DNA of 64,000 bases from Promethearchaeota archaeon (GCA_048938105.1 JBHLMN010000009.1:160001-224000); one strand, 5' to 3'; shown: positions 11,735-52,558, counted from the first letter of the stretch. Numbers and translations: made by a program. Notes: generated by a model from the sequence alone, not told the origin.

Positions 11735-11853
11735 TAATGATTAATCAATATAAGCAAGTTGAATTTTCTTAAGAAAACATCCTACCAAAATGGTAAATCC
11801 TTTATTCATTATCCAAAATGAGGTTTTTATCTTTGAAATGGTGATGAATAATT

Positions 11854-26980: not shown

Positions 26981-28426
26981 TCATTCGATTATTGATGACC
27001 AAGGATATCGTTTTCTAATCTCTTGGAAGAGTCTTCCAATCTTTTGCTCTTCAAATGTCTTACCATAACATAAGCATAGTACGAGGCCTCCACGTGTTCT
27101 CTTAAATCTCTGGTACATTGTTTTTACAGTATTGACAACATCATAAACGATTAGGAGATTTGATTGAGGTATGTCAATGTCCCTCTCACCTACACTGGTC
27201 ATTACTAAAACTGCTTTATTCTCTGATTCTTTGAAGTGATTGAGAATAGCTATTTTATTCCGTACTTGACCAGTTATTTTGAAAGTGGAAAGCCCTAATT
27301 CCTGAATTTCTTCCTGAAGCTTCTGGGCTGTATCCAAAAATGAACACAGTACAACTGTTTTAGAATTCTGGGATTGTTTTTTAATAAGATCGAGTACTGC
27401 ATCAATCTTAGCGTTATGTTCAGGTAAATCATAAATTAGATCCTTAGTTATCCCGAATTTGGTTAATCTAAAGAGAAATTTTCGGAATTTTGGGGGTTGC
27501 ATTGCGGTACAGTATTTTCGGACAAGTAATAAGCCTTGATACTTCTGAGTGTTTCCAGATTCAAGCATTCCGGAAACTAGAGCGAGCTGCGAAGAGGGAA
27601 TTGTTTCAAGAAGAGTTGGATGTTGCTCCAGAGTCTCCTCGATGATTTCCTTTCTTAATTCCTGAATACCCTGATCTATTAAATTCAAAATTTTTAGTAG
27701 TTCAGGGCTTATCTTCACTTCATATCGCTGAATATAAGTATTTTGAATATAATTTTTAATATCAGTCTGCGCTAGAAGTGTGTCCATCCGAATAATGTGA
27801 AGTTTAGGAATACGCTTATCAAGTGAATCAATTTCAGGTTGAATCTCGATTTGATCTTTCAAATGATTATAGAGAATGTGAGAGTCTCGTATAGTACCCG
27901 TCATTCCTACTATCCAAGCACCAGAACGAATGAAATATGGAATGAGGCTATTATAGGGAAAAATCAATAAACGAGAGCCACCATACCGTCGAACTATTTT
28001 ATCTATTTCGTTAATTATTACAACGTTAAATCTTGGCTTTTTAGATTCGAGGAGTTTGTTAAAGACATTAGCAAATGTTTGGGGAGTTGCAGCAACGATT
28101 CGTGCTTCATTAAGGATTTTGTGTCTAAGCTGTCCTGAAGTTTTAGAAGAGAAAGCTTGAAATTCTGAATCATGAAAACCGCCATACTCCTCCTGAAAGT
28201 AATGAATTGTTTCAGAGTAGCTAATTGTAGAATGTAAGAGAATGAGAATTCTTTGTTCAGAAAGATCTTTAATTAAAAGAAATGCTAGAACGCGCTTTCC
28301 AAGTCCTGTATCTACTTCAACGACCGTGTGACGACCCTGTAAGAAGTTTTCTTTGAGTTTGGAAAGTATTATCTGCTGATATTGACGATTTTGAATCATA
28401 CTTTCCTTTGGATCGGGGGAGGACAA
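26981..28426 (-). CDS. Hef/FANCM-like SF2 helicase core with degenerate motifs and no nuclease domain
   Basis: RQYQ, DTGLGKR, ATPQT, INEID, MTGT, TSVGERDIDIP, QRFKRTRG. Confidence 0.75.
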   Translation of the reverse strand: MSSPDPKESMIQNRQYQQIILSKLKENFLQGRHTVVEVDTGLGKRVLAFLLIKDLSEQRILILLHSTISYSETIHYFQEEYGGFHDSEFQAFSSKTSGQLRHKILNEARIVAATPQTFANVFNKLLESKKPRFNVVIINEIDKIVRRYGGSRLLIFPYNSLIPYFIRSGAWIVGMTGTIRDSHILYNHLKDQIEIQPEIDSLDKRIPKLHIIRMDTLLAQTDIKNYIQNTYIQRYEVKISPELLKILNLIDQGIQELRKEIIEETLEQHPTLLETIPSSQLALVSGMLESGNTQKYQGLLLVRKYCTAMQPPKFRKFLFRLTKFGITKDLIYDLPEHNAKIDAVLDLIKKQSQNSKTVVLCSFLDTAQKLQEEIQELGLSTFKITGQVRNKIAILNHFKESENKAVLVMTSVGERDIDIPQSNLLIVYDVVNTVKTMYQRFKRTRGGLVLCLCYGKTFEEQKIGRLFQEIRKRYPWSSIIE

Positions 28427-28564: not shown

Positions 28565-31500
28565 ATGAATATGACTACAGATTTATATAATCAATTAGGG
28601 CTTACAGCAGAAGAGGGTCAAGTCTACACTATTATTGTTTCTAAATCGGTGCGAACGGCCGAAGAAATTATGATATTAGCTAGTGATCTAGATCTTGAAG
28701 CTATTCAAGACGCCTTAGATGGATTAGAAAAAAGAAAATTCATAAGAGTTATCCCAGGAAAGGTGCCACAATACATCGCATTGGCTCCAGCAATCGCTGT
28801 AACTAGTGAAATTGACCTTCAAGTAGAAAGCGAATTAAACCAAATTCAGGAAGAAATCAAAAATCGATGGGAAGAAGGGCAAAAAGAACTAATTAATATA
28901 GTAAGTGATCTCCAGAAAGGGCCAGATTTAGTCTTAAAATCCGAAAAAGAATTTCAATCTCATATTCAGGCTTATTTAGAGCGAATGAAAACTAAAACTA
29001 CTGAAGTTCAACAACAAATCAAAAGTCAAATCTCAAATCAAAACCAGAAAAATTCTGAAAAGCTAGAGAATTTAATTACCGAATTTTCTAACAATTTGGA
29101 AACTGAACTCAATAGAAATACTATTCAACTTGAAGCTGATCTTAAAAATGCTAAAGAATCTCAGGTAGAAGAAAGAAAACAGCACGTTGACAGAATAAAT
29201 GAAATCTATTCAGAAAGAATTGAAAGTTTGAATGCTCTTTCCTCTCAGATGAGGCAAACGATCCAAACACTTCAGAATCAAGTTGTAAATACAACGGAGA
29301 ACTTAAACTCAACCGTTTCAACTATCAACGAACAAATCAACGGAAATATTAAACAAAATAAACTTTCAGGAAGAGATAACCTTAGTTCAATTGGAGGAGA
29401 AATGACCAAAAAAGCTTCTGATAGGTTGGCTATAATCAGGCAACAAATTGAAGCAATACAGACGGAGCTCATTAATCTAGGTGAAGATTCATTAAGATCT
29501 ATCCAGGAAATGGTTCAGGATTTCAGTGAGTGGGCCTCTAAAAGCTCTCTTTCGGTTATAGATTCAGCAAATGAGGCTAGTGAAAATCTTTGGAATAAGT
29601 TACTAGAAATGTTTCATTCATTAGTAGGAATCAGTAATAGACTAGATGAAGCCAAAGAAAAATTAAACTCAGAAAATATAACATTAGTTTTAACTGAAGT
29701 TTTAATGAATGCCAAAGAAGAGTTGATTAGAGGATCAAAGGCATTTAAATCTATTCAGACAAAAGGATTGATGGATATAAACACAGATGTAACCACCCAA
29801 ATATCTTATTTCCAAGAAAAAATAAGCTCTGATATTTCTCAGTTATTTCAAGAATTAGAGGAATCTATTCAAACACAATATAATAAGGGAATAAAAGAGT
29901 TACTAAAATTAGAAGCTGATATCTCTTCCCTCTTGGAAGAAAATGGAACTGTTATTGTGCAAGAAAGCTCAGAGACAATAAAAAAAATAATACAAGATCT
30001 AAAACAACAGACTCAACCATTAGTAGAGTTAAATTCCAATTCTTTCTTGGAAATGATAGAATTAGTGTCTAATACTGAGAAAACGCTTGAAGAGGATTCT
30101 GAATTAAATCTAATTGATATAATAACGGTTATAGACGAATTACACCTAAGAATAAGTGAAACACTTTCTGAAAGAAGTAATAAACTCTCTGAATCTTTGC
30201 AATATCTTCAAAATGTTGCGAATGAGGAATTTTCTTCTTTTGGGTCTTCGGCAAACATGATGCTTGGCCAAATGCAGTCAACGCTAACAGAAAATGTCGC
30301 TGCTAGAACAGAAGAAATCACCCAAAACTTTGATGTCATTAGTCGAGTGTCAGAGGATTTAAACCGAATCTCAAAAAATTCTCAGAATGAAATTTCAAGG
30401 ATTCTTGACCAATTTAAAACTAATATAGAGGCCGGAAATCAAACAATTTCCGAAACATTTGATCAGGATATTTCTAATCTCGCTATGGACGTTACAGAAG
30501 TTAGTGAAGCGGCAAAAAACGAGCAAGAAGAACAAATTATTGCTTCAAAAGAACGATTAAAATCTCTCTCTGAAAAAATAGAGAAATCAACATTGGAACT
30601 GAGTCGTAATATCCCTACTCAACTTGAGGAATACCAAGCAAGACATACTGATGATTTCAACACCTTTGATCGAGCGGTAAAAGCTGAACTCAACAAGATT
30701 AGAACTCGTTTGACTGAAATAAATACTGAGGTTGGTGAAAGATTAAGTAAAAGAGTCAGTCTAGGGAAAGGAGGTTTCCAAGATATCGAGAAGATTGTTA
30801 CTTCTGCAATGAAAGATTTCGAGAGTGCTCAGAAGCGTACAGAAAAGTTGATCGATGATCAGATTAACAACTTCAAGATTTCAAGTGATTCATTTGCTTC
30901 CACAATAAACACGACTTTAAATACACAAAATTTAGAAATTCAGAGGTTAATGGATACTATTGAAGAGGATCTAGTATATTCGATAAATTCTTCTTACAAA
31001 TTGACATTGAAAAATATCTCAGATTTTTCAGATCGAGTAAAAGAGAGATATAACACACGAAAAGCTAATCTTATTGACCAATTAGGGTTTCTTCTCTCGA
31101 CTATTTCAGCTTCACTTGATGAAAGTCTTAAACAAAGTCTTATTAAAGAATTTAATGAGCTAAATACATCCCTAGGACAATTAGATCAAACAAGTCAAGC
31201 TCCACAAGAACTGGAAGCAATTCTTAATGCTGAAGTGGAAAATTTCATCCAAAACCTTCAACTTGCTTTTCAATCTGCAAGTGAGTCTGGAGGAGCACGA
31301 ATTGCAGAAGTAATTAACGAATTTATAATTTCTGAGATAAATAAGACCTTTACTAGTCTCAAAATTCAATCCGACCTTTCTAATCTCAAAGAAGTTATGT
31401 CTTCTCATTGGAAATTGACTTCTCAAAAGGTAAGTTCCATCCTTTCTCAACTCAATGAAGAACTGGACAAAAAATCAAATACATTTCTAGAATCGACAAG

Positions 31501-33181
31501 GAACAACTTGCAAAATGTAATTAAAGTCTTAGAAGAAGCACAAACTCACTTAAAGACGATTATAGATACAAAAATCCAAGCTGTAAATTCGTCTCAAAAA
31601 GAAAAATATCAAGAAATTCCTACTAGTTTAGAGGAAAATGGTAAGGAAATCATTACTAACCTAGACATAACTAATGAAAAACTTCAAGATTCTATGAAAA
31701 CTATTACTGAAACCACTAATGAGTCGATCAAAAAAATCTCCACACAAATTATAGCGACCACAGATGAACAGTTGAATGATATTCGTTCTCTTCTCACTAG
31801 GATTGAGGAAACCTCAGTTCAAGTGGTAACAGATATTAAAGAACAATACAACAATTCAAAAGAAGTTATTGATAACTTAAAGTCCGAGAGCTTAAATCAT
31901 ATCAAGACAATTGAACAACAAGCTTCATCTGAAAGAACAGAGTTTATAGATCAAGTTGAAAAGATTAATATCAGATTGGAAAGCGAAATAAATAGCTTAA
32001 AATCAAAAGTTACTGAATTAGACAAAAATTTCCCACAAAAGAAGACTCAAATGGAGAAAGAGATTCAAAAAGCAATCGAAATATTTAGTTCTAATGTTCA
32101 AGATATTTTTTTAAAAATGCAATCGGATATTAATTCTGGTAAGATTCAATTAAGTCAAAATGTTGACCATTTGTATCAGGATTTTCAAGCTTCTCTTGAA
32201 ACATTTGTCGCAACTGCTCAAAATTTTATTTCATCTTTGAACAGTCGTCATGATTCACTTCTAAACCAAACCAGTGATTTCTTAGATGATAGAGTCACGA
32301 ATAGTATAAATACTTTGGAAATAGAGAAAAAAACCATTACAGACCGCCAACAAATATTATTCAAAGAAATTGATCAAAATCTTACCAGTTTTTCGAACAC
32401 TTATAGTCAAATAATAACTGATAGTATGGAAGTAATCTCAACCAATTTGCAGGAAAACATCACAGAAATTCAGAATATGGTTAATGAAGGGAGTAGTTCT
32501 TATTATGACGACATTGATTCTATACTTACAGAGACTTATTCCTTCTTGGAATTAGAAAGTCAAGAAATATCTAAAATATTAGAACATGATATATTGAATC
32601 TTGTTTCAGAAGTTGATAAAAAGGCAACACAGACACAAGACACAATTTCAAGTGACCTTACACGAATTATTAGAACAATTCCAGAGAAAATTGGCTCAGG
32701 ACTGACAAAAAGCAAAACATTAATGTCATCAATTTCTGATATTCAGAAGATTGCAATGGAAGTCCCAATAGCAAGCGTTGAGGAGACTTATCTCCAAACT
32801 CAACCTGTAGAAAGAGTTATGCTAACTCTCGAAGCAATGTTAAATCGAACGAAAAGTACTATTCAAATTATGGTACCTAAGCTATCGATGATTCCTTGGG
32901 ACTTACTACAACAAGCAGGAACTCGACGACGAATACAGATTCTTACTAATGTCGATTCCCAAGAAACGGCTGCAAAAATTACTCAAGAGCTCGGTAATGT
33001 CCAATTAAAACACTACGAAAACGTGGAAGTCTATGCTTTTGCGAGAGACGGTACAGAAGAGGCTGCGATCGGTTCCGATGATATCAGTGGAGTACAATTG
33101 ATTATTACAACGGACAGTCGCCTTATTGGAGTTCTAAAAGAAATCATACAAGATTTATGGCCCCGAGGAAAAACAGTTTAA
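28565..33181 (+). CDS. Giant protein: TrmB-type winged helix, ~1300-aa hendecad coiled coil, TrmB effector/PLD-like C-terminal domain
   Basis: LGLTAEEGQVY..LEKRKFI..GKVPQYIALAP (TrmB wHTH); 11-residue hydrophobic periodicity; C-terminal MLNRTKSTIQIMVP..RIQILT..FARDGTEEAAIG. Confidence 0.8.
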   Translation: MNMTTDLYNQLGLTAEEGQVYTIIVSKSVRTAEEIMILASDLDLEAIQDALDGLEKRKFIRVIPGKVPQYIALAPAIAVTSEIDLQVESELNQIQEEIKNRWEEGQKELINIVSDLQKGPDLVLKSEKEFQSHIQAYLERMKTKTTEVQQQIKSQISNQNQKNSEKLENLITEFSNNLETELNRNTIQLEADLKNAKESQVEERKQHVDRINEIYSERIESLNALSSQMRQTIQTLQNQVVNTTENLNSTVSTINEQINGNIKQNKLSGRDNLSSIGGEMTKKASDRLAIIRQQIEAIQTELINLGEDSLRSIQEMVQDFSEWASKSSLSVIDSANEASENLWNKLLEMFHSLVGISNRLDEAKEKLNSENITLVLTEVLMNAKEELIRGSKAFKSIQTKGLMDINTDVTTQISYFQEKISSDISQLFQELEESIQTQYNKGIKELLKLEADISSLLEENGTVIVQESSETIKKIIQDLKQQTQPLVELNSNSFLEMIELVSNTEKTLEEDSELNLIDIITVIDELHLRISETLSERSNKLSESLQYLQNVANEEFSSFGSSANMMLGQMQSTLTENVAARTEEITQNFDVISRVSEDLNRISKNSQNEISRILDQFKTNIEAGNQTISETFDQDISNLAMDVTEVSEAAKNEQEEQIIASKERLKSLSEKIEKSTLELSRNIPTQLEEYQARHTDDFNTFDRAVKAELNKIRTRLTEINTEVGERLSKRVSLGKGGFQDIEKIVTSAMKDFESAQKRTEKLIDDQINNFKISSDSFASTINTTLNTQNLEIQRLMDTIEEDLVYSINSSYKLTLKNISDFSDRVKERYNTRKANLIDQLGFLLSTISASLDESLKQSLIKEFNELNTSLGQLDQTSQAPQELEAILNAEVENFIQNLQLAFQSASESGGARIAEVINEFIISEINKTFTSLKIQSDLSNLKEVMSSHWKLTSQKVSSILSQLNEELDKKSNTFLESTRNNLQNVIKVLEEAQTHLKTIIDTKIQAVNSSQKEKYQEIPTSLEENGKEIITNLDITNEKLQDSMKTITETTNESIKKISTQIIATTDEQLNDIRSLLTRIEETSVQVVTDIKEQYNNSKEVIDNLKSESLNHIKTIEQQASSERTEFIDQVEKINIRLESEINSLKSKVTELDKNFPQKKTQMEKEIQKAIEIFSSNVQDIFLKMQSDINSGKIQLSQNVDHLYQDFQASLETFVATAQNFISSLNSRHDSLLNQTSDFLDDRVTNSINTLEIEKKTITDRQQILFKEIDQNLTSFSNTYSQIITDSMEVISTNLQENITEIQNMVNEGSSSYYDDIDSILTETYSFLELESQEISKILEHDILNLVSEVDKKATQTQDTISSDLTRIIRTIPEKIGSGLTKSKTLMSSISDIQKIAMEVPIASVEETYLQTQPVERVMLTLEAMLNRTKSTIQIMVPKLSMIPWDLLQQAGTRRRIQILTNVDSQETAAKITQELGNVQLKHYENVEVYAFARDGTEEAAIGSDDISGVQLIITTDSRLIGVLKEIIQDLWPRGKTV

Positions 33182-33214: not shown

Positions 33215-34168
33215 ATGATAATGGCTGATGTAATAGCTATAGGAGAACTCTTGATTGATCTAATCGCGGATAATCCGTCAGCACGTATGGAGGATCAAAC
33301 CACATTTAAACGATTTGCTGGAGGAGCTCCAGCAAATTTTATTGTTGGAATAAAAAAATTAGGATTTTCAGCTGGTTTGATTTCAAAAGTCGGAGATGAC
33401 TTCTTCGGACGTTTCTTAATTGAAACTTTAGAAAAGGAAGGGATCGATATCAGTCAAATTATCATAACTAATGAATATAAGACTGCTCTAGCGTTTGTAG
33501 GTCTAGATGAATTAAAAAGACCTTCTTTTTCATTTTATCGATCTCCATGCGCAGATATCATGTTAAAAGAATCAGAAATTAATACAGGGTATATAAAGTC
33601 AGCAAAACTTTTAATGTATGGAACAGTCTCAATAGCGGATGAACCAGCTAGGTCCGCAGTAAAAAAGGCCGTTCATGTCGCAAAACAAAACGATGTGTTA
33701 GTCGCTTGTGATCCAAATCTTCGAGATGATCTCTGGCATCATCAAGATCCGCGAGAGTATTTACTTGAATTATTAGAAATGACAGATATTTTTCTACCAT
33801 CTTTGAGTGAAGTTGAATTAATTACTGGAAAAAAGGAAGAAAAAGCGATTGAAGCAATTTTTGAAATTGGCCCAAAGGTAATAGGTGTAACTTCAGGTGA
33901 GAAAGGTTCAAGAATTATTACCAAGGAAAAAACATTTTTTGCACCTTCTTTTAATGTTCCTGTTATGGACACAACAGGCGCAGGTGATGCCTTTGCGGCT
34001 GGCATGATCACAGGACTTCTTTTAAAGTTAAATATGAATAATATCCCCTATTTTGCCAATGCTGTATCAGCTTTGAAAATTATGAAAAAAGGAGCAATGT
34101 CTTTACCCACGATGAAGGAAGTAACAGATTTTTTAAAACAAAGAAAGATAAGAATATCGAATTTGTGA
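33215..34168 (+). CDS. PfkB-family carbohydrate kinase (fructokinase-like)
   Basis: GGAPAN, VGDDFFG, DPNLR, DTTGAGDAF. Confidence 0.92.
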   Translation: MIMADVIAIGELLIDLIADNPSARMEDQTTFKRFAGGAPANFIVGIKKLGFSAGLISKVGDDFFGRFLIETLEKEGIDISQIIITNEYKTALAFVGLDELKRPSFSFYRSPCADIMLKESEINTGYIKSAKLLMYGTVSIADEPARSAVKKAVHVAKQNDVLVACDPNLRDDLWHHQDPREYLLELLEMTDIFLPSLSEVELITGKKEEKAIEAIFEIGPKVIGVTSGEKGSRIITKEKTFFAPSFNVPVMDTTGAGDAFAAGMITGLLLKLNMNNIPYFANAVSALKIMKKGAMSLPTMKEVTDFLKQRKIRISNL

Positions 34169-34215
34169 GTAGTAAGCAAGAATAATGATTCTTAGGCTTT
34201 TAATTAGGTAGGGGT

Positions 34216-35409
34216 ATGAAATTCAAAGAGAAATCAACTGATGATAATATGTTAGACCTTACTTTGAGTGAAATGAATCGTTTAGTTTTATACAAACAGC
34301 ATTTAGTAAATGAATCAAGAACTAAGAATATTGTTAAAATAGTAAAGGAGATTGGTGGGTTACATGCCACCAGTACCAAGGTTCCATACCAGTCCCTATT
34401 TGCTAGAATACCTAATTTTTCAAAAAAAGATCTAGATGAAGAGCTACTTGTTAAAAGAAATTTGGGTAAGATTCGGAGTATTCGAGGAACACTTTATATT
34501 TTCCCTAAAGAAGTTATCCCAATAATTCATGTCGCAACAAACAAAATCGTTGAATCACAATCTAGAAAAGCTTTAGAATTTAGGGGGATCTCATCTGATA
34601 AATATAAAGAGATTTCAGAATCAATAATTAGTATCTTAAGAGACAAAAAAGAAGAAATGAGTGCTTCGGAAATAAAAAAAGCTCTTCAAGTAAACTATGA
34701 GTCGATTTCGTATATTTTGTATTTAATGTGTGATCAAGCATTATTGATAAGAAGTAGTCCCCGTAAGTATACCTCTTTCAACGTATATTTCCCAGATATT
34801 GATTTTTCTCAAATTGACGAGGAACAAGCGATTACTCAGTTAGTACAATATTATTTAACTGCATTTGGCCCTGTTTCTGAAAATGATGCAGTATGGTGGA
34901 CTGGATTATCTAAAACAAACATAATCCAGGCTTTAAATCATATTCAAGATCGAATTTTGTATGTCAAAATAACAAATCTTAACACGGATCTTATGATGTT
35001 AGCTTCTGATAAAGATATGATAGATTCCATACCTAGTTCTAAAAACCAAATAGTAAATTTCTTACCAATGCTAGATCCATATATAATGGGATATAAAGAA
35101 CGTGATAGATATATCAGTTCAGCGCGTTATAATTTCGTTTTTGATCGTACTGGAAACGCTACATCCTCAATTTTACTCAATGGAAGAATTATCGGAGTTT
35201 GGGATGTTTTCCAAGGTGGTAAACCACAATTAAAGCTATTTCTCTTTGAAAAAACTGAAAAAAATATAAAAAATGAAATAAAAATACAAGCAAAGAGGCT
35301 TGGAAGGTTCATTACCAATAAAGACGTTTTAATACAAGAATGTGACTCTATGATTCCACTAACAGAGAGATCAGCAGGATCATTCATGTCACCTCTCAAA
35401 GAGTTTTAA
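34216..35409 (+). CDS. AlkZ/YcaQ-like winged-helix DNA glycosylase family protein
   Basis: SLFARI, IRGTL, YLTAFGP, WWTGL, FLPMLDPYIMGYKER, GRIIGVW. Confidence 0.8.
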   Translation: MKFKEKSTDDNMLDLTLSEMNRLVLYKQHLVNESRTKNIVKIVKEIGGLHATSTKVPYQSLFARIPNFSKKDLDEELLVKRNLGKIRSIRGTLYIFPKEVIPIIHVATNKIVESQSRKALEFRGISSDKYKEISESIISILRDKKEEMSASEIKKALQVNYESISYILYLMCDQALLIRSSPRKYTSFNVYFPDIDFSQIDEEQAITQLVQYYLTAFGPVSENDAVWWTGLSKTNIIQALNHIQDRILYVKITNLNTDLMMLASDKDMIDSIPSSKNQIVNFLPMLDPYIMGYKERDRYISSARYNFVFDRTGNATSSILLNGRIIGVWDVFQGGKPQLKLFLFEKTEKNIKNEIKIQAKRLGRFITNKDVLIQECDSMIPLTERSAGSFMSPLKEF

Positions 35410-40884: not shown

Positions 40885-43251
40885 CTAAAAACTTCCATGT
40901 TCAGTTCGTCTAATGATTTCATCCTGTAATTCAGGTATCAGATCAACAAAATAATCGCTATAACCAGCAACGCGAACTATCAAATCACGATACTTCTCTG
41001 GATTCATCTGAGCTTGTCGTAAGGTATCTGCAGTTACTACATTAAATTGGATATGGTGACTATCAAGTTTAAAATGAGCTCGTATTAGATGCATCAATTT
41101 CTCAATACCTTCCTCTGTTGACAAAAGCTCTGGACTGAATTTTTGATTCAGAAGAGTCCCCCCCGTCCTTAAATGATCAATTTTTGATACAGATTTAATC
41201 ACTGCAGTCGGTCCTTTTCTATCAGCTCCCTGCACAGGAGAAATGCCTTCAGAAAGAGGTTCGCCATTTTTCTTCCCATCAGGCATAGCACCAGTCATTT
41301 GTCCAAAATAGATATGAACAGTTGTGGGAAGAAGGTTGATCCTATGATGACCACCCTTCGTATTGGGACGTCCGTCAATAGCATTAAAATAACTCTCAAA
41401 AATTCGTTTAGTAATACTATCAGCATAATCGTCATCATTACCATATCTAGGAGTATCATTCACGAAGCGGTTTCTAAGTTCCTCAAATCCAGTAAAATCT
41501 GCTTTTAGAGCTTGAAGAAGTTCCTCCATACTAATAAAAGTATTATCAAAAATATTGTATTTAATTGAGGTCAATGAATCAGTCATACTACCTAAACCCA
41601 CACCTTGGATATAGGTGGTGTTATATCTAGCTCCACCCGCATTATAGTCTTTACCATTAGCTATACAATCATCAATCAAGAGAGAGAGAAAGGGAGCGGG
41701 CATATATTTTGCATAAATCCGTTCAATGATATTATTTCCTTTAATTTTGATATCTATGAAATATCTCAACTGTTCCTCATAAGCAGCGTAAAGTTCATCG
41801 AAGGTACTGAAAGTTGTTGGATCACCAGTTTTTATACCAATTTGTTTACCTGTTTTAGGGTCAGTACCGTTGTTAAGAGTAATTTCCAACACTTTTGGCA
41901 TATTAAAATAACCAGTTAAAATATAGGATTCTGTTCCGAAGGCACCAGTCTCTACACATCCACTAGCCCCTCCTTTTCGTGCATCTTTCAATGATTTCCC
42001 TTGACGAATCATTTCTTGAATAATTGCTTCACAGTTAAAAATGGAAGGTTGACCATAACCAGTTTTAATGATTTTCAAAGCTCGTTTAATTAAGCGGTTG
42101 GGATTCTTCTTACTTAATTGAAGCATGGAACTAGGTTGTACTAACCGCATTTCTTCGACAATATCTAGCAGTAAATATGAGAGTTCATTTGTTGCATCTG
42201 ATCCATCTTCCTTCACTCCCCCAATATTAATCAGGGTAAAATCTGTATAAGTATTACTTTCTTTAGCAGTTACACCAACTTTGGGTGGGGCTGGTTGGTT
42301 ATTAAATTTAACCCAAAAAGCTTGGAGTAGTTCTATGACTTTCCCTCTAGTTAATGTTCCCTCCTCCAGCTCTTTTTTATAGAAAGGATAAAGATGCTGA
42401 TCTAGACGTCCAGGATTAAATGAGTCCCAGGTATTCAACTCGATAGTTACTCCCAAATGCACAAACCAATAATATTGCAATGCTTCCCAGAGAGTTCTAG
42501 GTGCATGAGCTGGTACCCATTGGCAGATTTCAGCCATTTTTAATAATTCTATAGCACGATTACTATCTTTCTCCTCACTTGCCTGTTCCTTTAATGCTTT
42601 AGAGTAGCGATGAGCGTAAGTAATTAACGCAGTAGTAGCAATATCCATTGCTTTTAATTCTTCTCTTTTATCAAAGGCTTCGGGGTCATTATAGAAATCT
42701 AGGTTGTTAATAGACTGTTTAATTTCTTCTTTAAGATCCAAAAATCCTTTCCTGTATATTATATCACCTAAAACTGTATGACCTGGAGCTCTTTGCTCTT
42801 GAAATTCAGTAAATACACCCGCTTCATATGCAGCTTTCCATTCTTCTGAAACTGAACCAAATATTATGTCCCTGATGGATCTTCCTTTCTCCCAAAAAGG
42901 AATGATAGTGTTTCGATATATATTTCGTGTTTCCTCAATGACATTAAATGATATTTTTTTCCTAGATTTTAATATTTCAAGGTCTCTCAGGCTATGGACA
43001 CATAACTCAGGATAAGTAGGCGCAGCTTTAGGTTTTGATCCTTTCTCTCCAACTATCAGTTCCCCATAGTTAATACAGAGCTTCTTATTCTCTAAGATGT
43101 ACTTGAAAGCTAATGCACGCTTTACAGGGATTGAAACGCGGTCAGCAATTTCGCTTTGATAAAATTGTGTAAGTAATTCTGCTCTTTCAGGATCTAACCA
43201 AGGTTTTGCTTCTAAGCTTTGTTCACGTAGCCGCTTTATACGCTCATTCAT
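40885..43251 (-). CDS. hypD: Glycyl radical enzyme, trans-4-hydroxy-L-proline dehydratase type
   Basis: EQRAPGHT, NTWDSFNPGRLDQ, ESNTYTDF, SGCVE, TGYFN, LLPTT, RVAGYS. Confidence 0.88.
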   Translation of the reverse strand: MNERIKRLREQSLEAKPWLDPERAELLTQFYQSEIADRVSIPVKRALAFKYILENKKLCINYGELIVGEKGSKPKAAPTYPELCVHSLRDLEILKSRKKISFNVIEETRNIYRNTIIPFWEKGRSIRDIIFGSVSEEWKAAYEAGVFTEFQEQRAPGHTVLGDIIYRKGFLDLKEEIKQSINNLDFYNDPEAFDKREELKAMDIATTALITYAHRYSKALKEQASEEKDSNRAIELLKMAEICQWVPAHAPRTLWEALQYYWFVHLGVTIELNTWDSFNPGRLDQHLYPFYKKELEEGTLTRGKVIELLQAFWVKFNNQPAPPKVGVTAKESNTYTDFTLINIGGVKEDGSDATNELSYLLLDIVEEMRLVQPSSMLQLSKKNPNRLIKRALKIIKTGYGQPSIFNCEAIIQEMIRQGKSLKDARKGGASGCVETGAFGTESYILTGYFNMPKVLEITLNNGTDPKTGKQIGIKTGDPTTFSTFDELYAAYEEQLRYFIDIKIKGNNIIERIYAKYMPAPFLSLLIDDCIANGKDYNAGGARYNTTYIQGVGLGSMTDSLTSIKYNIFDNTFISMEELLQALKADFTGFEELRNRFVNDTPRYGNDDDYADSITKRIFESYFNAIDGRPNTKGGHHRINLLPTTVHIYFGQMTGAMPDGKKNGEPLSEGISPVQGADRKGPTAVIKSVSKIDHLRTGGTLLNQKFSPELLSTEEGIEKLMHLIRAHFKLDSHHIQFNVVTADTLRQAQMNPEKYRDLIVRVAGYSDYFVDLIPELQDEIIRRTEHGSF

Positions 43252-43254
43252 TGA

Positions 43255-44040
43255 TTAACCTCCAAGTTTAGTTGTGAATCCAAGACCTCTAAATGTATCT
43301 AATAATTGATCCAACCTATCTGGCGATGGTGGGTCAAGATCAAGCATTTTATTTTCGCGATTCAATTTTTTGTACTTGCTGTAACCAATTTTGTGAAACG
43401 GAAGAAGATTAATTTCTCTTACAGTTTCAAGTTTGGATATCCATTCAGCCAATTGGTTAATATTTTCTTCTGTTTCTGTAATTCCAGTAATAACAGGGAA
43501 GCGAATAATTATTTTCTTTTCCTCTTTATCAAGTTTCTTCAGATTAGAGAGGATGGGTAAAACTGATACTCCAGTATATTTCAGATGTTTTTTATCATCA
43601 ATCATCTTAAGATCATATAAAAAAAGATCTACTTTATCCTTAACTTTTTTAACAATCTCCCAGGATGCATATCCACATGTATCGAGTGTTGTAGTAAGTT
43701 CCCTCTCCTGACATGCAATTAATAAGCAATCCAAAAAGTCAGGTTGCATCAAAGGTTCTCCACCAGAAAAAGTTACTCCACCACTAGATTCATCGTAAAA
43801 AATCAAATCCTTTTCTATTTCAGCTATAACCTCTTCAACGCTTATCTCTCGTCCAATAATCTCCTTTTGTGTATTCTGATTATTCCAAATTATCTCTGGT
43901 TTTGGATTTTGACCTTCTGGATTATGACACCACCAGCAATTTAATGGGCAGCCCTTCAAAAAAACAGTTGTACGAATACCAGGGCCATCATGGAGAGCAT
44001 ATTTCTTGATGTCAAAAATAACTCCTTTCGTTTCCATCAC
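43255..44040 (-). CDS. Glycyl-radical enzyme activating enzyme (radical SAM), short form without ferredoxin insert
   Basis: HDGPGIRTTVFLKGCPLNCWWCHNPE, SGGEP, LLPFH. Confidence 0.93.
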   Translation of the reverse strand: MMETKGVIFDIKKYALHDGPGIRTTVFLKGCPLNCWWCHNPEGQNPKPEIIWNNQNTQKEIIGREISVEEVIAEIEKDLIFYDESSGGVTFSGGEPLMQPDFLDCLLIACQERELTTTLDTCGYASWEIVKKVKDKVDLFLYDLKMIDDKKHLKYTGVSVLPILSNLKKLDKEEKKIIIRFPVITGITETEENINQLAEWISKLETVREINLLPFHKIGYSKYKKLNRENKMLDLDPPSPDRLDQLLDTFRGLGFTTKLGG

Positions 44041-48658: not shown

Positions 48659-50815
48659 TCATTTTATGGTTTCTATGATGTCATCCGTGTCTTTTAGAAT
48701 TGTTTTCACGGATGTCACAACATTCTCTGTGTTGGTGGTGACGTTCATTGTAAGCGTTTCAGAGGCAGTATCAATAGCTGTATTTAGTTCTTCAAATTTA
48801 ATATCTAAAGTACGACGCTGATCATCTACTCCCTCACGATGATTCCGATTAGCCTCTAGGAATGAATCAAGACTTTGCTGTTGATCATCAAAGAAACGAG
48901 TAAACTTCTCTTGGAGATTATCTCGATAATTATCAACAATCTCTATATTCTTATTAAGTTCTTTGGTAGCATTAGCTCGGAACTTTGCAATTGAGCTTTT
49001 ATGCTCATCCTCTAATCCTTCAATAAGGTCTTTTGTACTCTGTTCACTGGTTTTTACATTTTCATCTAACTTGTGATGAGTTTCACCGACAATTGATCTA
49101 ATTGAACTCATTCCATCTTGCTCAATAGCAGTTACTTGTTTCCTAAGATCATCAAATGCTGCAGTACTTGTCCTTGTTACTTCAGATTTCTTATCCTCGA
49201 TGTATTCTAGATTTGATTCGATATGATCTTCAGCTGCAGGTGAGATGCTACTAATAGTAGTGACCAATTCACTCTGTTTAGTTCGCAAGGTACTCCGAAT
49301 GTCTGTGAGTGTAGTTTCGATATTTTTTTCCTGACCAGATTGAAGAGTTCTAAATGATTCATTTACAGTATCTCCTAATTGATCAAGTGTACTTGCGTTT
49401 TTGCTAATTGTAACACCGATAATTGTTTCTGTATTATCAAAAAAATCCATCAGAGAAACATCTATATCAGAAGCAGTTTTATCAAACTTAGTCGCTGTAG
49501 TCTCCTTGTATTGAACTATTGATGAATCTATAGCACTGAATCTATCTTCAACAGCATTCATTAAACTAGAATACATATTCTCACGGGTCTTCTTATACTC
49601 ATCGGAGACTTTAGAAATGACTCCTGAGACCTGATCCTCGAGTTGTTTTCCTATACCACCGATTTTATTTAAATTACTTACGAGAAGGCCATCTAAACTC
49701 CCTTTCATCTCCTCACGGGCACTGGTTAATCGAGAAATAAGCGCATCAATTTGATTAAGAATCGAATCTTGGAATTTAGTGAATGAAAGGGTAATATTGT
49801 CAATTTCATTATATAAATTTGTCATAAGCTGGTTTTCTAGGTCTGTTAACATATTAGTCTGGGAGTTTTCATTCGATTCCAAAATATTCTGAAAAGTTTT
49901 AGCAGATGTTTCTTTAATCGTGGAGAGAGCACTTGAATGTTCCTCTTGTACCGATTTCCAATCCTCAATCGCTTCAAGTAATTGGTTCTCAATCCTAGCC
50001 TTAACATCTGACTTTGCTTTTATTACTGCTTCATGAATGGCTTTTTGCATCTCTGTATTGTTGGATTTTTGACTTGTAAGACTTTCTTCAAGATTGTTCA
50101 TCACCCCATCGATACCTGCTAATAAATCTTCTTTAGCCATCTCTAACCGCCCCACAGAGTCACTGACGGTGCCTGCAAAGATTGCATCGACATTAGTTTC
50201 TTTGGAGTCACTAAGGTCTCTAATTTTAGCTCGAAACTCATTTAATGATTCTATAAATGAGGAGGCAATACTCTCAGTCATTTCTCGTTGATTAGCACTT
50301 TCACTTTCAACTGTACTGACAATGTCACGTTGTATCTGTGATAATTTATTAGAAATAGAATCTTCAAATTCAGAGATTTGATCCCGTTGAGTAGAATAAA
50401 TATCACTCAAACCAGTGTTGACTTTTCCCGCCATTTGAGAATAAATAGAAGAGACATCTTCTTCCTGTTGTGTTGATAAATTAATCATTGCTTTCTGAAG
50501 TGTCTGAACACCAGAACTGATTTGTCCTAATAAATTGTTCAAGCGGTCGTTTAATGCAGCTTTATCTGAAAGTAGGGTTTTTTTCTTATAATCCTCTAAT
50601 TCTCTTGTAAAATTATCGATACTATTCATTAAAATGTTGATTTCAGAAAGAGTACTATCCTTGGATTTGGCTAAACTGTTAGTAAAACTTTCCAATGCCT
50701 TTTTACTTTCTTTTCCAAAATCAAGAATCCTTTTCTGAAGTTGACTATTTTCACTTTCAATTTTTGCTTTATGGTCTTTTATTCTACTAATTTTTTCATC
50801 CTGTTCTGTACTCAT
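48659..50815 (-). CDS. All-helical hendecad coiled-coil protein (718 aa from ATG 50815; 721 aa in the ORF track)
   Basis: About 57 consecutive in-register 11-mers, one proline; GGGTGA RBS before ATG 50815. Confidence 0.85.
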   Translation of the reverse strand: MSTEQDEKISRIKDHKAKIESENSQLQKRILDFGKESKKALESFTNSLAKSKDSTLSEINILMNSIDNFTRELEDYKKKTLLSDKAALNDRLNNLLGQISSGVQTLQKAMINLSTQQEEDVSSIYSQMAGKVNTGLSDIYSTQRDQISEFEDSISNKLSQIQRDIVSTVESESANQREMTESIASSFIESLNEFRAKIRDLSDSKETNVDAIFAGTVSDSVGRLEMAKEDLLAGIDGVMNNLEESLTSQKSNNTEMQKAIHEAVIKAKSDVKARIENQLLEAIEDWKSVQEEHSSALSTIKETSAKTFQNILESNENSQTNMLTDLENQLMTNLYNEIDNITLSFTKFQDSILNQIDALISRLTSAREEMKGSLDGLLVSNLNKIGGIGKQLEDQVSGVISKVSDEYKKTRENMYSSLMNAVEDRFSAIDSSIVQYKETTATKFDKTASDIDVSLMDFFDNTETIIGVTISKNASTLDQLGDTVNESFRTLQSGQEKNIETTLTDIRSTLRTKQSELVTTISSISPAAEDHIESNLEYIEDKKSEVTRTSTAAFDDLRKQVTAIEQDGMSSIRSIVGETHHKLDENVKTSEQSTKDLIEGLEDEHKSSIAKFRANATKELNKNIEIVDNYRDNLQEKFTRFFDDQQQSLDSFLEANRNHREGVDDQRRTLDIKFEELNTAIDTASETLTMNVTTNTENVVTSVKTILKDTDDIIETIK

Positions 50816-50827
50816 AATTCTCACCCG

Positions 50828-52558
50828 TTAAATATTGGTTTCGGGAGAAGTCTCCACCGATTTAGGTGTTGTACTTTTTAACAGATTTTTAAAGAATTTA
50901 GCTTGTGTAACGGAAGAATAAGTTTTAATAGCTTTATTTGCTGCATCTGTGGCTGAATTAATATCATCTGCTCCTTCAAACAGTTTGAAAGCATGGTAAT
51001 ATGATGATCGGGCCAATTCCAATTGTTTCTGCTTATCATATCTTTCCGCATTTTGCAGATACAGCATTGCCGTACGTTGGCTGATATCTTTACGTTTCCG
51101 CTCATTCTTAACAAGACGATAAGATTCGATACTTTTTCGATAAAGAGCCACTGTATACGGGGTCTTTTCCTGATTGTAAAACTCTTGGGCACATTCTTCA
51201 AAGAAAATCCCGCTACCCTCCGTATCTTTCGCCATTCGTAAAAAATTACCTGTTAATAATGCTAAACGATATGCTTCATAGAATTTCCTGGCCTCAAAAG
51301 CACTTTGGTAAAGAGACTTTGTTCGGTTAGGGATAGATTTGTCTTCCAGCCTCTCTGTTGAGTATGATGCTTGTTCTAACCGTTCTAGAACCTTTGGATT
51401 TATTTCAAATCCCATCATCATATCTGCTTCGAGAATCTGTAATAATAAACTAGCTTCAGCCTTCAAATCTACAACTGAAAGTCCAGAACCTAAAAGAGAA
51501 AACATGGCATAACTTGAAAATTGGTAGTAATCACCTAGTTTTATGATTAAACCTTTAGTTTCTAACTTATTAATAGCCTCTTTTGGAGTTCTTGCTGAGT
51601 CAAATGTATCCTGTGGAATAGCATTTCGAGGAGAGCTTAACATTACTTGAAGTACGAGGTTTTCTTCTTCATCAATTTTATATACATCCTGAAGAAATGC
51701 GCGGAGAGCAAAAGTACGAATGAAGGATTGAGCTATTTCTTGGATTGAGCTCTCACTTTCATCCAATCCTTCTCGTTCAATTTTATCTTCAGCCCATCGT
51801 ACGACATCTACGATGAAAACAAGGTTAAATGGTGAACGATCGCTTTGTTTCACAAGTTCATCACGCAATTGACTACTGCTTTGCAATTTTCCGTGAGCAA
51901 TTTTTGAAAGAAGAAGTTTTGAGTCAGAAAAATCTAATCTGTCCAATACAAAGTGCTCACTAATTTGGACAAGCTCTTTAATCTCGTTTAAGTTATACTC
52001 TTGGATTGTACCAATAAATAATAACTGTGGAAACCTGCTTTGAAGAACTTTTAGCAGGTCTACTAACCCATCAATGACATATTTTTGTCCAGAATCCAAT
52101 ATCCGGTCAAGAGGATCTAATGCAATTACGATTGGAGATTTAGGGGGACGAGCAGTTAAATTATTCGAAAAATTGCCGATTATTTCAGACATTTTAGATT
52201 TCGGAGAAAATAATTTTATCTCCTCTTCCCTTGATTTCTTAAGGAAACCCTTCTTTTCTTCTGTTAAATGAGGTGAAATTACTTGATAAACATCACGGAA
52301 TAAGTTGCGATTCATTTTCCCGCCCATTCCGATTGAAACTTGACCAAAAGCCATCATCTCATTTCTAATGATCTCAGCAAATACATTCAGTAAGCTGGTT
52401 TTCCCAATACCTGGTGATCCTGAAATGAGAACAAAATTTTCCTTTAGTTTTTTTTCTTTAAAATCGGACAATATCGTTTCAAAGCGTTTCTCGTAACTTC
52501 GACGACCAACGACTAAATGGGGCTCACATGGCTTTAAAAAACTATCATAAGGACACAT
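50828..52558 (-). CDS. STAND/AAA_16-like P-loop ATPase with winged helix and C-terminal TPR/SNAP-like helical repeats
   Basis: VVGRR, GSPGIGKTS, IALDPLD, SPFNL, LETKGLI..YYQF, Ala/Tyr-rich helical repeats. Confidence 0.8.
   Translation of the reverse strand: MCPYDSFLKPCEPHLVVGRRSYEKRFETILSDFKEKKLKENFVLISGSPGIGKTSLLNVFAEIIRNEMMAFGQVSIGMGGKMNRNLFRDVYQVISPHLTEEKKGFLKKSREEEIKLFSPKSKMSEIIGNFSNNLTARPPKSPIVIALDPLDRILDSGQKYVIDGLVDLLKVLQSRFPQLLFIGTIQEYNLNEIKELVQISEHFVLDRLDFSDSKLLLSKIAHGKLQSSSQLRDELVKQSDRSPFNLVFIVDVVRWAEDKIEREGLDESESSIQEIAQSFIRTFALRAFLQDVYKIDEEENLVLQVMLSSPRNAIPQDTFDSARTPKEAINKLETKGLIIKLGDYYQFSSYAMFSLLGSGLSVVDLKAEASLLLQILEADMMMGFEINPKVLERLEQASYSTERLEDKSIPNRTKSLYQSAFEARKFYEAYRLALLTGNFLRMAKDTEGSGIFFEECAQEFYNQEKTPYTVALYRKSIESYRLVKNERKRKDISQRTAMLYLQNAERYDKQKQLELARSSYYHAFKLFEGADDINSATDAANKAIKTYSSVTQAKFFKNLLKSTTPKSVETSPETNI

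What the first reader, a model, noticed from the sequence alone, without database searches (positions are those of the whole stretch)
28565..33181. 1538-aa TrmB derivative with a ~1300-residue hendecad rod and a central Gly-rich motif
Seen: the TrmB wHTH (aa ~1-78) and TrmB effector/PLD-like domain (aa ~1400-1538) are separated by helix with clear 11-residue periodicity (FQSHIQAYLER MKTKTTEVQQQ IKSQISNQNQK NSEKLENLITE FSNNLETELNR ...). A basic Gly-rich motif KRVSLGKGG (30749-30775, aa ~729-737) lies almost exactly at the rod midpoint (~738). The putative recognition helix is acidic (DLDLEAIQDALD). Established: TrmB normally has a short dimerisation helix; hendecad coils occur in tetrabrachion, the kinesin-5 stalk and some tape-measure proteins. 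Inference: the chain folds back SMC/Rad50-style into a rod of about 100 nm (0.15 nm per residue), bringing both TrmB domains together. This would be a transcription-factor scaffold repurposed as a structural, chromosome-organising or tethering filament without an ATPase head.
Basis: partly seen in the sequence, partly recalled or inferred. Interest (0 to 1): 0.85.

Follow-up and report, generated by a model that had tools for sequence, protein, structure and literature searches.

The report
TrmB-headed 100-nm hairpin rod protein
An Asgard archaeon encodes a 1538-residue protein in which the two ends of a TrmBL2-type DNA-binding regulator are separated by a roughly 1300-residue helix that almost certainly folds back on itself into a rod about 100 nm long; it belongs to an unannotated family found across the Asgard phylum that usually sits in an operon with an ATPase and a second rod protein.

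Summary
ORF 28565-33181(+) encodes 1538 aa. It has a TrmB wHTH (Pfam 28 bits against a cut-off of 25.6) and a C-terminal PLD-fold domain whose best structural matches are TrmBL2 (Foldseek E 5e-9). Between them lie about 1300 helical residues with a single hydrophobic period of 3.64 and no heptad signal.

The fold-back idea gains comparative support:
- Eight orthologues down to 43% identity keep the length within 5 aa.
- Conservation is mirror-symmetric about aa 733-735.
- In 21 relatives of 714-1812 aa, the homologous basic Gly motif always splits the rod into equal arms (r 0.997, slope 0.99).

New findings:
- The architecture is common in Asgard genomes: the C-terminal domain profile matches 159 of 399, mostly in frames of 600-1900 aa.
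- In other lineages the gene is third in a tight operon, after a STAND-like P-loop ATPase and a hendecad rod. Their only homologues in this genome lie in the same window, at 50828-52558(-) and 48659-50824(-).

So "no ATPase head" holds for the chain, but an ATPase partner is likely. Function is inferred: a length-defined structural scaffold or tether, probably not a classical DNA reader. The scan's first readers also noted this architecture on another genome. No publication was found.

The parts
28565..33181 (+). Gene C: 1538-aa TrmB-headed hairpin rod protein (P0001)
   Evidence: The ORF is open. There are eight full-length orthologues of 1533-1538 aa at 43-79% identity.
28592..28789 (+). TrmB-type winged helix-turn-helix, aa 10-75. 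It is acidic, and the recognition helix carries net charge -5.
   Evidence: Pfam PF01978 at 28.0/31.2 bits against a cut-off of 25.6. Profile hit to TrmBL2 with alignment. Charge.
28817..30748 (+). N-arm of the rod, aa ~85-728: a helix with hydrophobic period about 3.64
   Evidence: all-helix AF2 model; arm lengths.
30203..30298 (+). Invariant patch in the N-arm, aa 547-578; mirror partner of aa 892-918
   Evidence: these two are the only rod segments dense in invariant columns outside the apex. Position sums of 1460-1470 match the apex symmetry.
30749..30775 (+). Apex motif KRVSLGKGG, aa 729-737, inside the most conserved rod stretch (aa 680-767), which holds the protein's most positively charged 50-residue window (aa 701-750, net +4)
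   Evidence: Eight of the nine motif residues are invariant in nine orthologues. AF2 places a loop at aa 729-734. A homologous motif lies at the rod midpoint in 21 relatives of 714-1812 aa. Charge.
30776..32734 (+). C-arm of the rod, aa 738-1390
31238..31318 (+). Invariant patch in the C-arm, aa 892-918 (includes GG at 909-910); mirror partner of aa 547-578
   Evidence: The 3.64 periodicity is weak here.
32783..33166 (+). C-terminal PLD-fold domain of TrmBL2 type, aa ~1407-1534, without an HxK...D catalytic motif
   Evidence: AF2 pLDDT 70-89. Foldseek top hits are TrmBL2 at E 5e-9, then PLD-family proteins and TrmB. The motif was read from the alignment.
50828..52558 (-). Gene A: 576-aa STAND-like P-loop NTPase (AAA_16) with a helical-repeat tail; partner of C in other lineages
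   Evidence: Pfam AAA_16 at 35.2 bits. It is the only homologue in this genome of the operon's first gene (E 6.7e-70). Walker A is intact and Walker B reads ALDPLD.
48659..50824 (-). Gene B: 721-aa acidic hendecad rod; partner of C in other lineages
   Evidence: It is the only homologue in this genome of the operon's second gene (E 4.3e-15). Period 3.66 at power 13.4, net charge -43. B also lies 5.9 and 7.7 kb downstream of C in orthologous loci.
26981..28426 (-). Divergently transcribed SF2 helicase with a Hef-like helicase core (481 aa); conserved neighbour within this orthologue group only
   Evidence: Pfam ResIII + Helicase_C. NCBIfam partial Hef match. It holds the same position in the loci of P0007 and P0010, but not in other length classes.

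Best explanation
Gene C encodes a TrmBL2-type protein whose short dimerisation helix has been replaced by a helical hairpin of about 1300 residues. The chain leaves the N-terminal wHTH as one long amphipathic helix of about 644 residues. It turns at the conserved basic loop KRVSLGKGG (aa 729-737) and returns antiparallel for about 671 residues to the C-terminal PLD-fold domain. Both TrmB modules therefore sit together at one end of a rod about 97-100 nm long, with the basic loop at the other end.

The hydrophobic stripe is about 120 degrees wide with period about 3.64. This fits a nearly straight, non-heptad helical bundle, most likely a dimer of hairpins, because TrmB proteins dimerise through this helix (inference).

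The rod length is under strong selection, and relatives come in discrete length classes. The protein therefore most likely acts as a length-defined cytoplasmic scaffold or tether rather than as a classical transcription factor: its recognition helix is acidic and the chain carries net charge -88.

It most likely works together with the products of genes A (a STAND-like P-loop NTPase with a helical-repeat tail) and B (a 721-aa hendecad rod). These two genes precede it in one operon in other Asgard lineages and lie 15.5 kb away in this window. The NTPase probably acts as a nucleotide-dependent switch for assembly or remodelling of the rods (inference).

Shown: the domains, the periodicity, the length conservation, the arm co-variation and the gene linkage. 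Inferred: the hairpin contacts, the oligomeric state, the partners and the cellular role.
For: Domains:
- The wHTH passes the Pfam cut-off and aligns to TrmBL2 through the wing and the first helix.
- The C-terminal model matches TrmBL2 best (E 5e-9), then PLD-family proteins and TrmB.

Rod:
- A single spectral peak at 3.64 residues with power 11 against a shuffle maximum of 2.6, and no power at 3.5.
- Phase coherence over hundreds of residues.
- A hydrophobic sector of about 120 degrees with an acidic opposite face.
- AF2 predicts all helix, with its best-scored stretch flanking a loop at aa 729-734.

Fold-back:
- Nine sequences at 43-79% identity align in 1542 columns with only 1-2-residue indels.
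- Conservation is mirror-symmetric about aa 733-735, with r 0.75. It stays at r 0.72 and 0.57 when +-120 or +-200 residues around the centre are masked.
- The only invariant-dense patches outside the apex (aa 548-578 and 892-912) are mirror images of each other.
- An HMM of the apex motif finds it in 21 full-length relatives of 714, 1091, 1168, 1257, 1392, 1440, 1499, ~1535 and 1812 aa. N-arm against C-arm length gives r 0.997, slope 0.99, and C minus N = 28 +- 9 residues. Non-seed hits were found by scanning whole sequences.

Family:
- The C-terminal domain profile matches 159 of 399 Asgard genomes, mostly in open frames of 600-1900 aa.
- It matches 64 clusters among 1.84 billion representatives.
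- Ten fetched members of 762-1812 aa have hydrophobic periods of 3.65-3.68 and net negative charge of -9 to -94. All but one (L030) show a TrmB-like N-terminus.

Module:
- The A-B-C operon with gaps of about 1-22 nt is seen in L034, L035, L038, L039 and L040.
- It is also seen in L046, L047, L048 and L050.
- The only A and B homologues of this genome are in the window.
- B lies downstream of C in orthologous loci.
Against: - No direct contact evidence exists. The AF2 rod model has low confidence (mean pLDDT 53.6, pTM 0.25). Its Foldseek matches to MukB, Smc5/6, condensin and Rad50 arms are not significant (E >= 2e-3, TM about 0.1).
- Nine orthologues are too few for co-evolution analysis.
- The six seed motifs for the apex HMM were picked by looking near the midpoint, so only the non-seed hits are unbiased.
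- In this genome, C is not in the A-B operon. It lies 15.5 kb away on the other strand, so co-regulation here is unproven.
- Remote subfamilies (762, 943, 1028 and 1191 aa) and the 714-aa paralogue lack A-B upstream.
- The Walker motifs of A are only loosely conserved.
- The function rests on inference only.
Confidence: 0.6

Rival explanations
1. Apolipoprotein- or perilipin-like lipid binder. The 11-mer amphipathic helices form a soluble bundle that opens onto membranes or lipid surfaces, with the basic apex and the helices lying on the bilayer. The TrmB ends serve only for oligomerisation.
For: Pfam Apolipoprotein A1/A4/E matches nine stretches at 79.6 bits. The only PDB sequence hit is ApoA-IV. 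The period is near 11/3. K/R are enriched at the flanks of the hydrophobic stripe and D/E opposite it, a class-A-like pattern. B-type partners in other loci exceed the Apolipoprotein and ApoLp-III cut-offs.
Against: The score is below Pfam's cut-off of 90. The hydrophobic sector is about 120 degrees, not about 180. Net charge is -88. There is no proline punctuation: 15 Pro in 1538 aa. The strict equality of arm lengths and the exact length conservation are not explained by surface binding. This reading is compatible with a hairpin, so it rivals only the function.
Confidence: 0.15
2. A genuine DNA-binding chromatin protein or regulator like TrmBL2. The head binds DNA and the rod acts as a spacer or bridging arm, for example linking distant DNA segments or DNA to another structure through the basic apex.
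For: Both TrmBL2 modules are retained and conserved. The wing motif PGK..P.YIALAP is invariant. The apex is the only net-positive stretch. A conserved divergent Hef-like helicase and a nearby AlkZ-like glycosylase suggest a DNA-related neighbourhood. TrmBL2 forms DNA filaments as dimers and tetramers (PMC4877046).
Against: Where TrmBL2 has PAPRTYDVLRSL in the recognition helix, this protein has DLDLEAIQDALDGL. The wHTH has pI 4.5. Relatives also lack the basic residues. The helicase neighbour is confined to one orthologue group in which general synteny is also conserved.
Confidence: 0.15
3. No fold-back. The helix forms an extended parallel homodimeric or oligomeric coiled coil about 195 nm long, with wHTH domains at one end and PLD-fold domains at the other.
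For: TrmB-family helices dimerise in parallel (PMC4877046). The AF2 rod model is of low confidence.
Against: This reading does not explain why a homologous Gly/basic motif always bisects the rod in relatives of 714-1812 aa. It also does not explain why conservation is mirror-symmetric with the centre masked, or why the two invariant patches are mirror images.
Confidence: 0.06
4. An antiviral defence module: a STAND NTPase sensor (A) with rod-shaped effectors, in which C carries a PLD-type nuclease and a ZorA-tail-like rod.
For: A shows sub-threshold matches to the Pfam nSTAND1 and nSTAND3 models. The PADLOC ZorA models hit the rods of C and B at E 9e-17 to 1e-9. The C-terminus has a PLD fold.
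Against: The ZorA hits fall only in the tail region of the profiles, and there is no MotA/ExbB membrane domain. By inspection the PLD domain lacks the HxK...D motif. The family is found across the phylum, has lineage-specific length classes, and sits among housekeeping genes such as RNA polymerase, MutS/L, tRNA synthetases and GAPDH. That is unlike defence islands.
Confidence: 0.04

Closest known systems
TrmBL2 (Thermococcales chromatin protein; PDB 5box, 5bpd, 5bpi, 5bqt) and TrmB
   Same: Same order of modules: an N-terminal extended wHTH, an amphipathic helix, then a PLD-fold C-terminal domain. Like TrmBL2, it has no sugar-binding barrel. The wHTH passes the Pfam cut-off, and the C-terminal fold matches TrmBL2 best (module order per PMC4877046).
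   Different: The dimerisation helix of about 35 residues is replaced by a hairpin of about 1300 residues. The recognition helix is acidic. There is no PF11495 sequence match. The protein is six times longer and strongly acidic, and its gene is linked to an NTPase and a second rod.
SMC / Rad50 / MukB arms
   Same: An intramolecular antiparallel helical arm tens of nanometres long brings the N- and C-terminal modules together. Arm lengths co-vary. There is a conserved apex and a conserved mid-arm discontinuity that recalls an elbow or joint.
   Different: There is no ABC ATPase head, no hinge domain and no Zn hook (CxxC). The period is 3.64 rather than heptad-based. The ATPase is a separate STAND-like protein. 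Foldseek matches are not significant.
Exchangeable apolipoproteins (ApoA-I/A-IV/E, apolipophorin III)
   Same: 11-mer amphipathic helices, a sub-threshold Pfam hit, and antiparallel helical bundles.
   Different: The score is below the family cut-off. There is no signal peptide or proline punctuation. The hydrophobic stripe is narrower, the length is far greater, and the ends are TrmB modules.
ZorA cytoplasmic tail (Zorya defence)
   Same: A long non-heptad helical rod. The PADLOC ZorA profiles align to the rods of C and B.
   Different: There is no MotA/ExbB membrane domain and no ZorB-D partners. The similarity is confined to the tail.
Sso10a (Sulfolobus wHTH protein with an antiparallel coiled-coil rod)
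   Same: An archaeal wHTH joined to an antiparallel coiled coil (PMC4941522).
   Different: In Sso10a the rod is short and intermolecular. Here it is intramolecular, about 100 nm long, and ends in a PLD-fold domain.

Membership tests
TrmB family (TrmBL2-like branch) | N-terminal TrmB-type wHTH (PF01978) above the curated cut-off | tested here: met
   28.0 bits for the whole protein and 31.2 bits for aa 1-130, against a cut-off of 25.6. Profile hit to TrmBL2 at E 0.006.
TrmB family (TrmBL2-like branch) | Amphipathic dimerisation helix directly after the wHTH | tested here: met
   The helix starts at aa ~78-85 and aligns with the TrmBL2 helix to aa ~110. It then continues for about 644 residues.
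TrmB family (TrmBL2-like branch) | PLD-fold C-terminal domain (N-subdomain of Regulator_TrmB, PF11495) | tested here: inconclusive
   There is no PF11495 sequence hit and no PDB hit by profile. The fold search does put TrmBL2 first at E 5e-9, with TrmB at 2e-5. The feature is met by fold but not by sequence.
TrmB family (TrmBL2-like branch) | DNA binding through the recognition helix | not testable with these tools
   Sequence only: the basic and aromatic residues of the TrmBL2 helix are replaced by acidic or aliphatic ones, and the net charge is -5.
SMC/Rad50 superfamily | ABC-type ATPase head formed by the N- and C-termini | tested here: not met
   The termini are a wHTH and a PLD fold. There is no SMC_N, AAA_23 or Rad50 hit in Pfam or NCBIfam.
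SMC/Rad50 superfamily | Intramolecular antiparallel coiled-coil arm | tested here: met
   Met indirectly through arm-length co-variation (r 0.997) and mirror-symmetric conservation. No contact data are available.
SMC/Rad50 superfamily | Hinge domain or zinc hook at the apex | tested here: not met
   The apex is a 9-residue basic Gly loop. The protein contains no Cys at all (composition) and there is no hinge-domain hit.
Apolipoprotein A1/A4/E (PF01442) | Score above Pfam's gathering threshold | tested here: not met
   79.6 bits against a cut-off of 90.
ZorA (Zorya) | MotA/ExbB-type membrane domain preceding the tail | tested here: not met
   PADLOC alignments cover only profile positions ~230-880, which is the tail. 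NCBIfam ZorA scores are 9-11 bits against cut-offs of 190-250.
Phospholipase D / Nuc nucleases | Catalytic HxK(x)4D(x)6G motif | tested here: not met
   By inspection of the alignment, the equivalent stretch reads EVYAFARDGTEEAAIGS, with no His or Lys at the catalytic positions. This was not checked by structural superposition.

The most novel reading that the evidence does not exclude
Genes A, B and C together form a previously undescribed Asgard-specific cytoplasmic system. It would consist of length-quantised helical hairpin rods (about 35-120 nm, depending on lineage) built on a TrmBL2 scaffold, a second hendecad rod, and a STAND-like NTPase that switches their assembly. The system would act as a nucleotide-regulated cytoskeletal ruler or tether, for example between chromatin and membrane or between internal structures, in the closest archaeal relatives of eukaryotes.
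Probability: 0.3. Interest if true: 0.9.

Novelty: new variant of a known kind. Interest (0 to 1): 0.78.

Why it matters
Asgard archaea are the closest known relatives of eukaryotes, and their cell architecture is under intense study. This work shows that a transcription-factor and chromatin-protein scaffold (TrmBL2) has been turned into a rod of fixed length, up to about 120 nm. The family is unannotated, spreads across the phylum, and is linked to an NTPase and a second rod.

It gives a clean natural example of an SMC-like fold-back arm that arose independently of ABC ATPases and uses near-hendecad rather than heptad packing. The set of length variants (714-1812 aa) with strictly matched arms is useful in two ways. 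It argues for the hairpin, and it serves as a ready-made series for testing whether the protein acts as a molecular ruler. The predictions can be tested directly by EM, cross-linking and pull-downs.

Tried and rejected
- Complex prediction on the N-terminal 260 aa plus the C-terminal 329 aa, with alignments, gave no verdict (score 0.21 against a mark of 0.32). It counts neither for nor against binding.
- The AF2 model of aa 235-1334 was chosen off-centre to test the apex. It is all-helix with a loop at aa 729-734, but confidence is low and no coordinates or contacts were returned. Its Foldseek hits to SMC-type arms are not significant.
- A profile of the C-terminus against PDB sequences found nothing meaningful (TrwF, E 1.8).
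- An apex HMM built from the nine orthologues alone found no distant relatives. A motif-centred seed was needed.
- BLAST mapping of where the arms were shortened in the 714- and 1091-aa relatives was ambiguous inside the repetitive rod.
- B and C show no significant pairwise homology (best E 0.035), although the B HMM weakly hits C rods.
- B has no conserved central turn.
- The three paralogues in this genome have no A-B genes upstream.
- Literature searches for TrmB with coiled coil and Asgard, for hendecad with Asgard, and for TrmB with antiparallel coiled coil found no description of the family.
- One search of earlier findings failed on a word-format slip.

Full report
**1. The observation**

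The window has about 35% G+C. Homologues of the protein come from Heimdallarchaeota and Hodarchaeota assemblies.

The ORF at 28565-33181(+) is intact and encodes 1538 aa. The composition is dominated by E, S, I, L, T, Q, N and K. There is no Cys and there are only 15 Pro.

Pfam finds a TrmB wHTH at aa 10-75, at 28.0 bits against a cut-off of 25.6. It also finds nine sub-threshold Apolipoprotein A1/A4/E stretches (79.6 bits against a cut-off of 90). Nothing is found at the C-terminus.

A profile of the first about 135 residues from nine orthologues hits the TrmBL2 crystal chains. The alignment runs through the wHTH, the wing and the start of the following helix.

An AF2 model of aa 1340-1538 is confident (pLDDT 70-89) over aa ~1407-1534. 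Its best PDB matches are the TrmBL2 chains (E 5e-9 to 3e-7). PLD-family proteins (NucT, F13, Zucchini, Nuc) and TrmB itself follow.

**2. The rod**

The Fourier spectrum of hydrophobic residues over aa 86-1390 has one sharp peak at 3.64 residues. Its power is 11.0, against a maximum of 2.6 in 200 shuffles. At 3.50 the power is 0.03, so a heptad-dominated rod, the second refuting condition, is excluded.

Local windows give 3.59-3.72, with long stretches of constant phase. There is one phase jump near aa 345-445 and one stretch of weak signal at aa ~840-970.

Relative to the local hydrophobic moment, hydrophobic residues fill a stripe about 120 degrees wide (52-71% occupancy). D/E lie on the opposite face and K/R are enriched at the flanks. 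This fits a nearly straight helical bundle with a core of about four positions in eleven.

The chain has net charge -88 and pI 4.7. The wHTH has pI 4.5, with -5 on the recognition helix. The 50-residue window with by far the highest net positive charge is aa 701-750 (+4), at the apex.

**3. Is it a hairpin?**

Three comparative signals that do not depend on structure prediction all support a hairpin.

(a) Length. Eight full-length orthologues at 43-79% identity are 1533-1538 aa long. All nine sequences align in 1542 columns with only 1-2-residue indels.

(b) Symmetry. The conservation profile of the rod is mirror-symmetric.
- The best centre is aa 733.5-735, with r 0.75.
- Masking +-120 or +-200 residues around the centre leaves the optimum at 733.5-734, with r 0.72 and 0.57.
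- Outside the apex, only two rod segments are dense in invariant columns: aa 548-578 and 892-912. They are mirror images of each other, with position sums of 1460-1470.
- Two of the few indels inside the rod (aa ~538 and ~936) are also close to mirror positions.

(c) Arm co-variation. A profile of the C-terminal domain finds 64 clusters among 1.84 billion representatives, mostly proteins of 600-1800 aa with the domain at the very end.

Among these and the genome-derived members, 41 have a TrmB-like N-terminus, this C-terminal domain and more than 500 aa.

A motif HMM built around the turn (consensus K-[KR]-x-S-L-G-K-x-G) recovers the motif in 21 full-length proteins. Their lengths are 714, 1091, 1168, 1257, 1392, 1440, 1499, ~1535 and 1812 aa.

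N-arm length (wHTH end to the Gly) against C-arm length (the Gly to the PLD-domain start) gives r 0.997 and slope 0.99, with C minus N = 28 +- 9 residues.

Within sub-lineages the two arms changed together:
- 644/671, 425/448 and 235/260
- 789/809 and 455/500
- 648/661 and 575/593
- 586/620 and 501/530

The seeds were chosen by looking near the midpoint. The non-seed hits came from scanning whole sequences, and each lies within about 10-25 residues of the computed midpoint.

An extended parallel coiled coil offers no reason for any of this. I take the fold-back as well supported but not proven.

AF2 on aa 235-1334, chosen off-centre on purpose, gives an all-helical model. Its only moderately confident stretch (pLDDT 70-75) flanks a loop at aa 729-734. 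Overall confidence is low and no contacts could be read. Its Foldseek neighbours (MukB, Smc5/6, condensin, Rad50) are suggestive but not significant.

**4. Geometry**

Arms of 644-671 residues at 0.15 nm per residue give about 97-100 nm. Across the family the rods would span about 35 nm (714 aa) to about 120 nm (1812 aa).

The mirrored invariant patches lie about 155-187 residues (about 23-28 nm) from the apex. They contain Gly (560, 568, 909, 910) and coincide with weak periodicity. They look like a conserved joint or docking site (inference).

**5. The family**

The C-terminal profile matches 159 of 399 Asgard genomes, and 37 of the 89 high-quality ones. The open frames cluster in length classes that track taxonomic families: ~1540, ~1450-1487, ~1260-1270, ~1816, ~1110-1130, ~930-966 and ~756-770 aa. 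There are also ordinary TrmB-sized frames of ~266-294 aa.

I fetched ten members of 762-1812 aa. Their hydrophobic periods are 3.65-3.68 and their net charges run from -9 to -94. All but one (L030) also match the N-terminal TrmB-type profile, the weakest (L031) only marginally.

This genome also holds three remote paralogues of the same architecture, of 1390, 760 and 800 aa.

The nearest ESM-Atlas clusters are all 'hypothetical protein', archaeal and mostly Promethearchaeota. I found no paper describing the family. The scan's first readers noted the same architecture on this stretch and on another genome.

**6. Context**

Within the window's orthologue group, a divergent SF2 helicase with a Hef-like core sits directly upstream. 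General synteny is also conserved there, so this says little.

The broader family is more informative. In the loci of the 1812-, 1719-, 1450-, 1392- and 1257-aa members, the gene is the third of three co-oriented, tightly spaced genes:
- A: 557-587 aa, an AAA_16/STAND-like P-loop protein with weak TPR/SNAP-like hits in its tail.
- B: 408-770 aa, an acidic apolipoprotein-like rod.
- C: the TrmB-headed rod.

The 1499-aa locus shows B-C and a truncated upstream gene.

Four further genome loci also have A-B-C, one has A-C only, and four remote subfamilies have neither.

Searching this genome with A and B from the nearest operon returns exactly one hit each, both inside the window:
- A at 50828-52558(-): 576 aa, E 6.7e-70.
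- B at 48659-50824(-): 721 aa, E 4.3e-15, period 3.66.

The two are adjacent and lie 15.5 kb downstream of C, in convergent orientation. In two orthologous loci, B lies 5.9 and 7.7 kb downstream of C.

In this lineage the module has therefore been split but has stayed local. A has an intact Walker A here. Its Walker B reads ALDPLD, and both motifs vary among homologues. This suggests a nucleotide-binding switch rather than a fast ATPase (inference).

**7. Mechanism and rivals**

My preferred reading has four parts:
- a TrmBL2-like composite head at one end of a hairpin about 100 nm long;
- a conserved basic loop at the other end;
- a probable dimer of hairpins;
- a role as a length-defined scaffold or tether, working with B and controlled by A.

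The acidic recognition helix argues against classical operator reading. Where TrmBL2 has PAPRTYDVLRSL, this protein has DLDLEAIQDALDGL.

The rivals are these:
- An apolipoprotein-like lipid binder. The Pfam signal and the class-A-like charge pattern support it. It is compatible with a hairpin but does not explain the length constraints.
- A true chromatin or bridging protein.
- An extended parallel coil, which contradicts.
- A defence module. The STAND-like A, the ZorA-tail-like rods and the PLD fold support it. Against it are the missing MotA domain, the missing HKD motif, the phylum-wide spread and the housekeeping neighbourhoods.

**8. Verdict**

The function remains inferred.

The protein is a TrmB-family member by its wHTH and by the fold of its C-terminus. 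It is not an SMC/Rad50 member, because it has no ABC head, hinge or hook, although it most likely folds like one. I rate it a new variant of a known kind. It belongs to an undescribed three-gene Asgard module that could prove to be something categorically new.

Noticed in passing
window 48659-52558 (-): Genes A (a STAND-like AAA_16 NTPase, 576 aa) and B (a 721-aa acidic hendecad rod with period 3.66) are adjacent here. In other Asgard lineages they form one operon with the TrmB-rod gene.
   Followed up: yes
own genome: C52:10298-14476(-), C52:416571-418865(-), C6:77556-79988(+): Three remote paralogues have the same wHTH, long 3.62-3.67-period helix and PLD-fold architecture, at 1390, 760 and 800 aa. 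None has A-B genes upstream.
   Followed up: partly
window 26981-28426 (-): A 481-aa SF2 helicase with a Hef-like helicase core and no nuclease domain is divergently transcribed from the rod gene. It holds the same position in two orthologous loci.
   Followed up: partly
L034:1-1708: Two Arf/Ras/Roc-type small GTPase genes lie just upstream of the A-B-C operon of the 1812-aa family member. An Arf-like gene also lies near the 1392-aa member (L038:14500-15225).
   Followed up: no
window 28565-33181 and 48659-50824: The PADLOC ZorA models align to the rods of both C and B (E 9e-17 to 1e-9), but only over the ZorA tail. This suggests that ZorA tails and these rods share a non-heptad rod sequence style.
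   Followed up: partly
window 33215-35409 (+): A PfkB-family sugar kinase and an AlkZ-like DNA glycosylase follow the rod gene. The kinase is absent from the orthologous loci examined, so it is probably an insertion between C and the A-B pair.
   Followed up: no
window 40885-44040 (-): A glycyl-radical enzyme (PFL-like) and its radical-SAM activase are syntenic with the rod gene in the P0007 and P0010 loci too.
   Followed up: no
L036:1199-4522(-) and 9870-12809(-): The 714-aa short paralogue (P0013) is flanked by two large ORFs (1107 and 979 aa) with no Pfam match.
   Followed up: no
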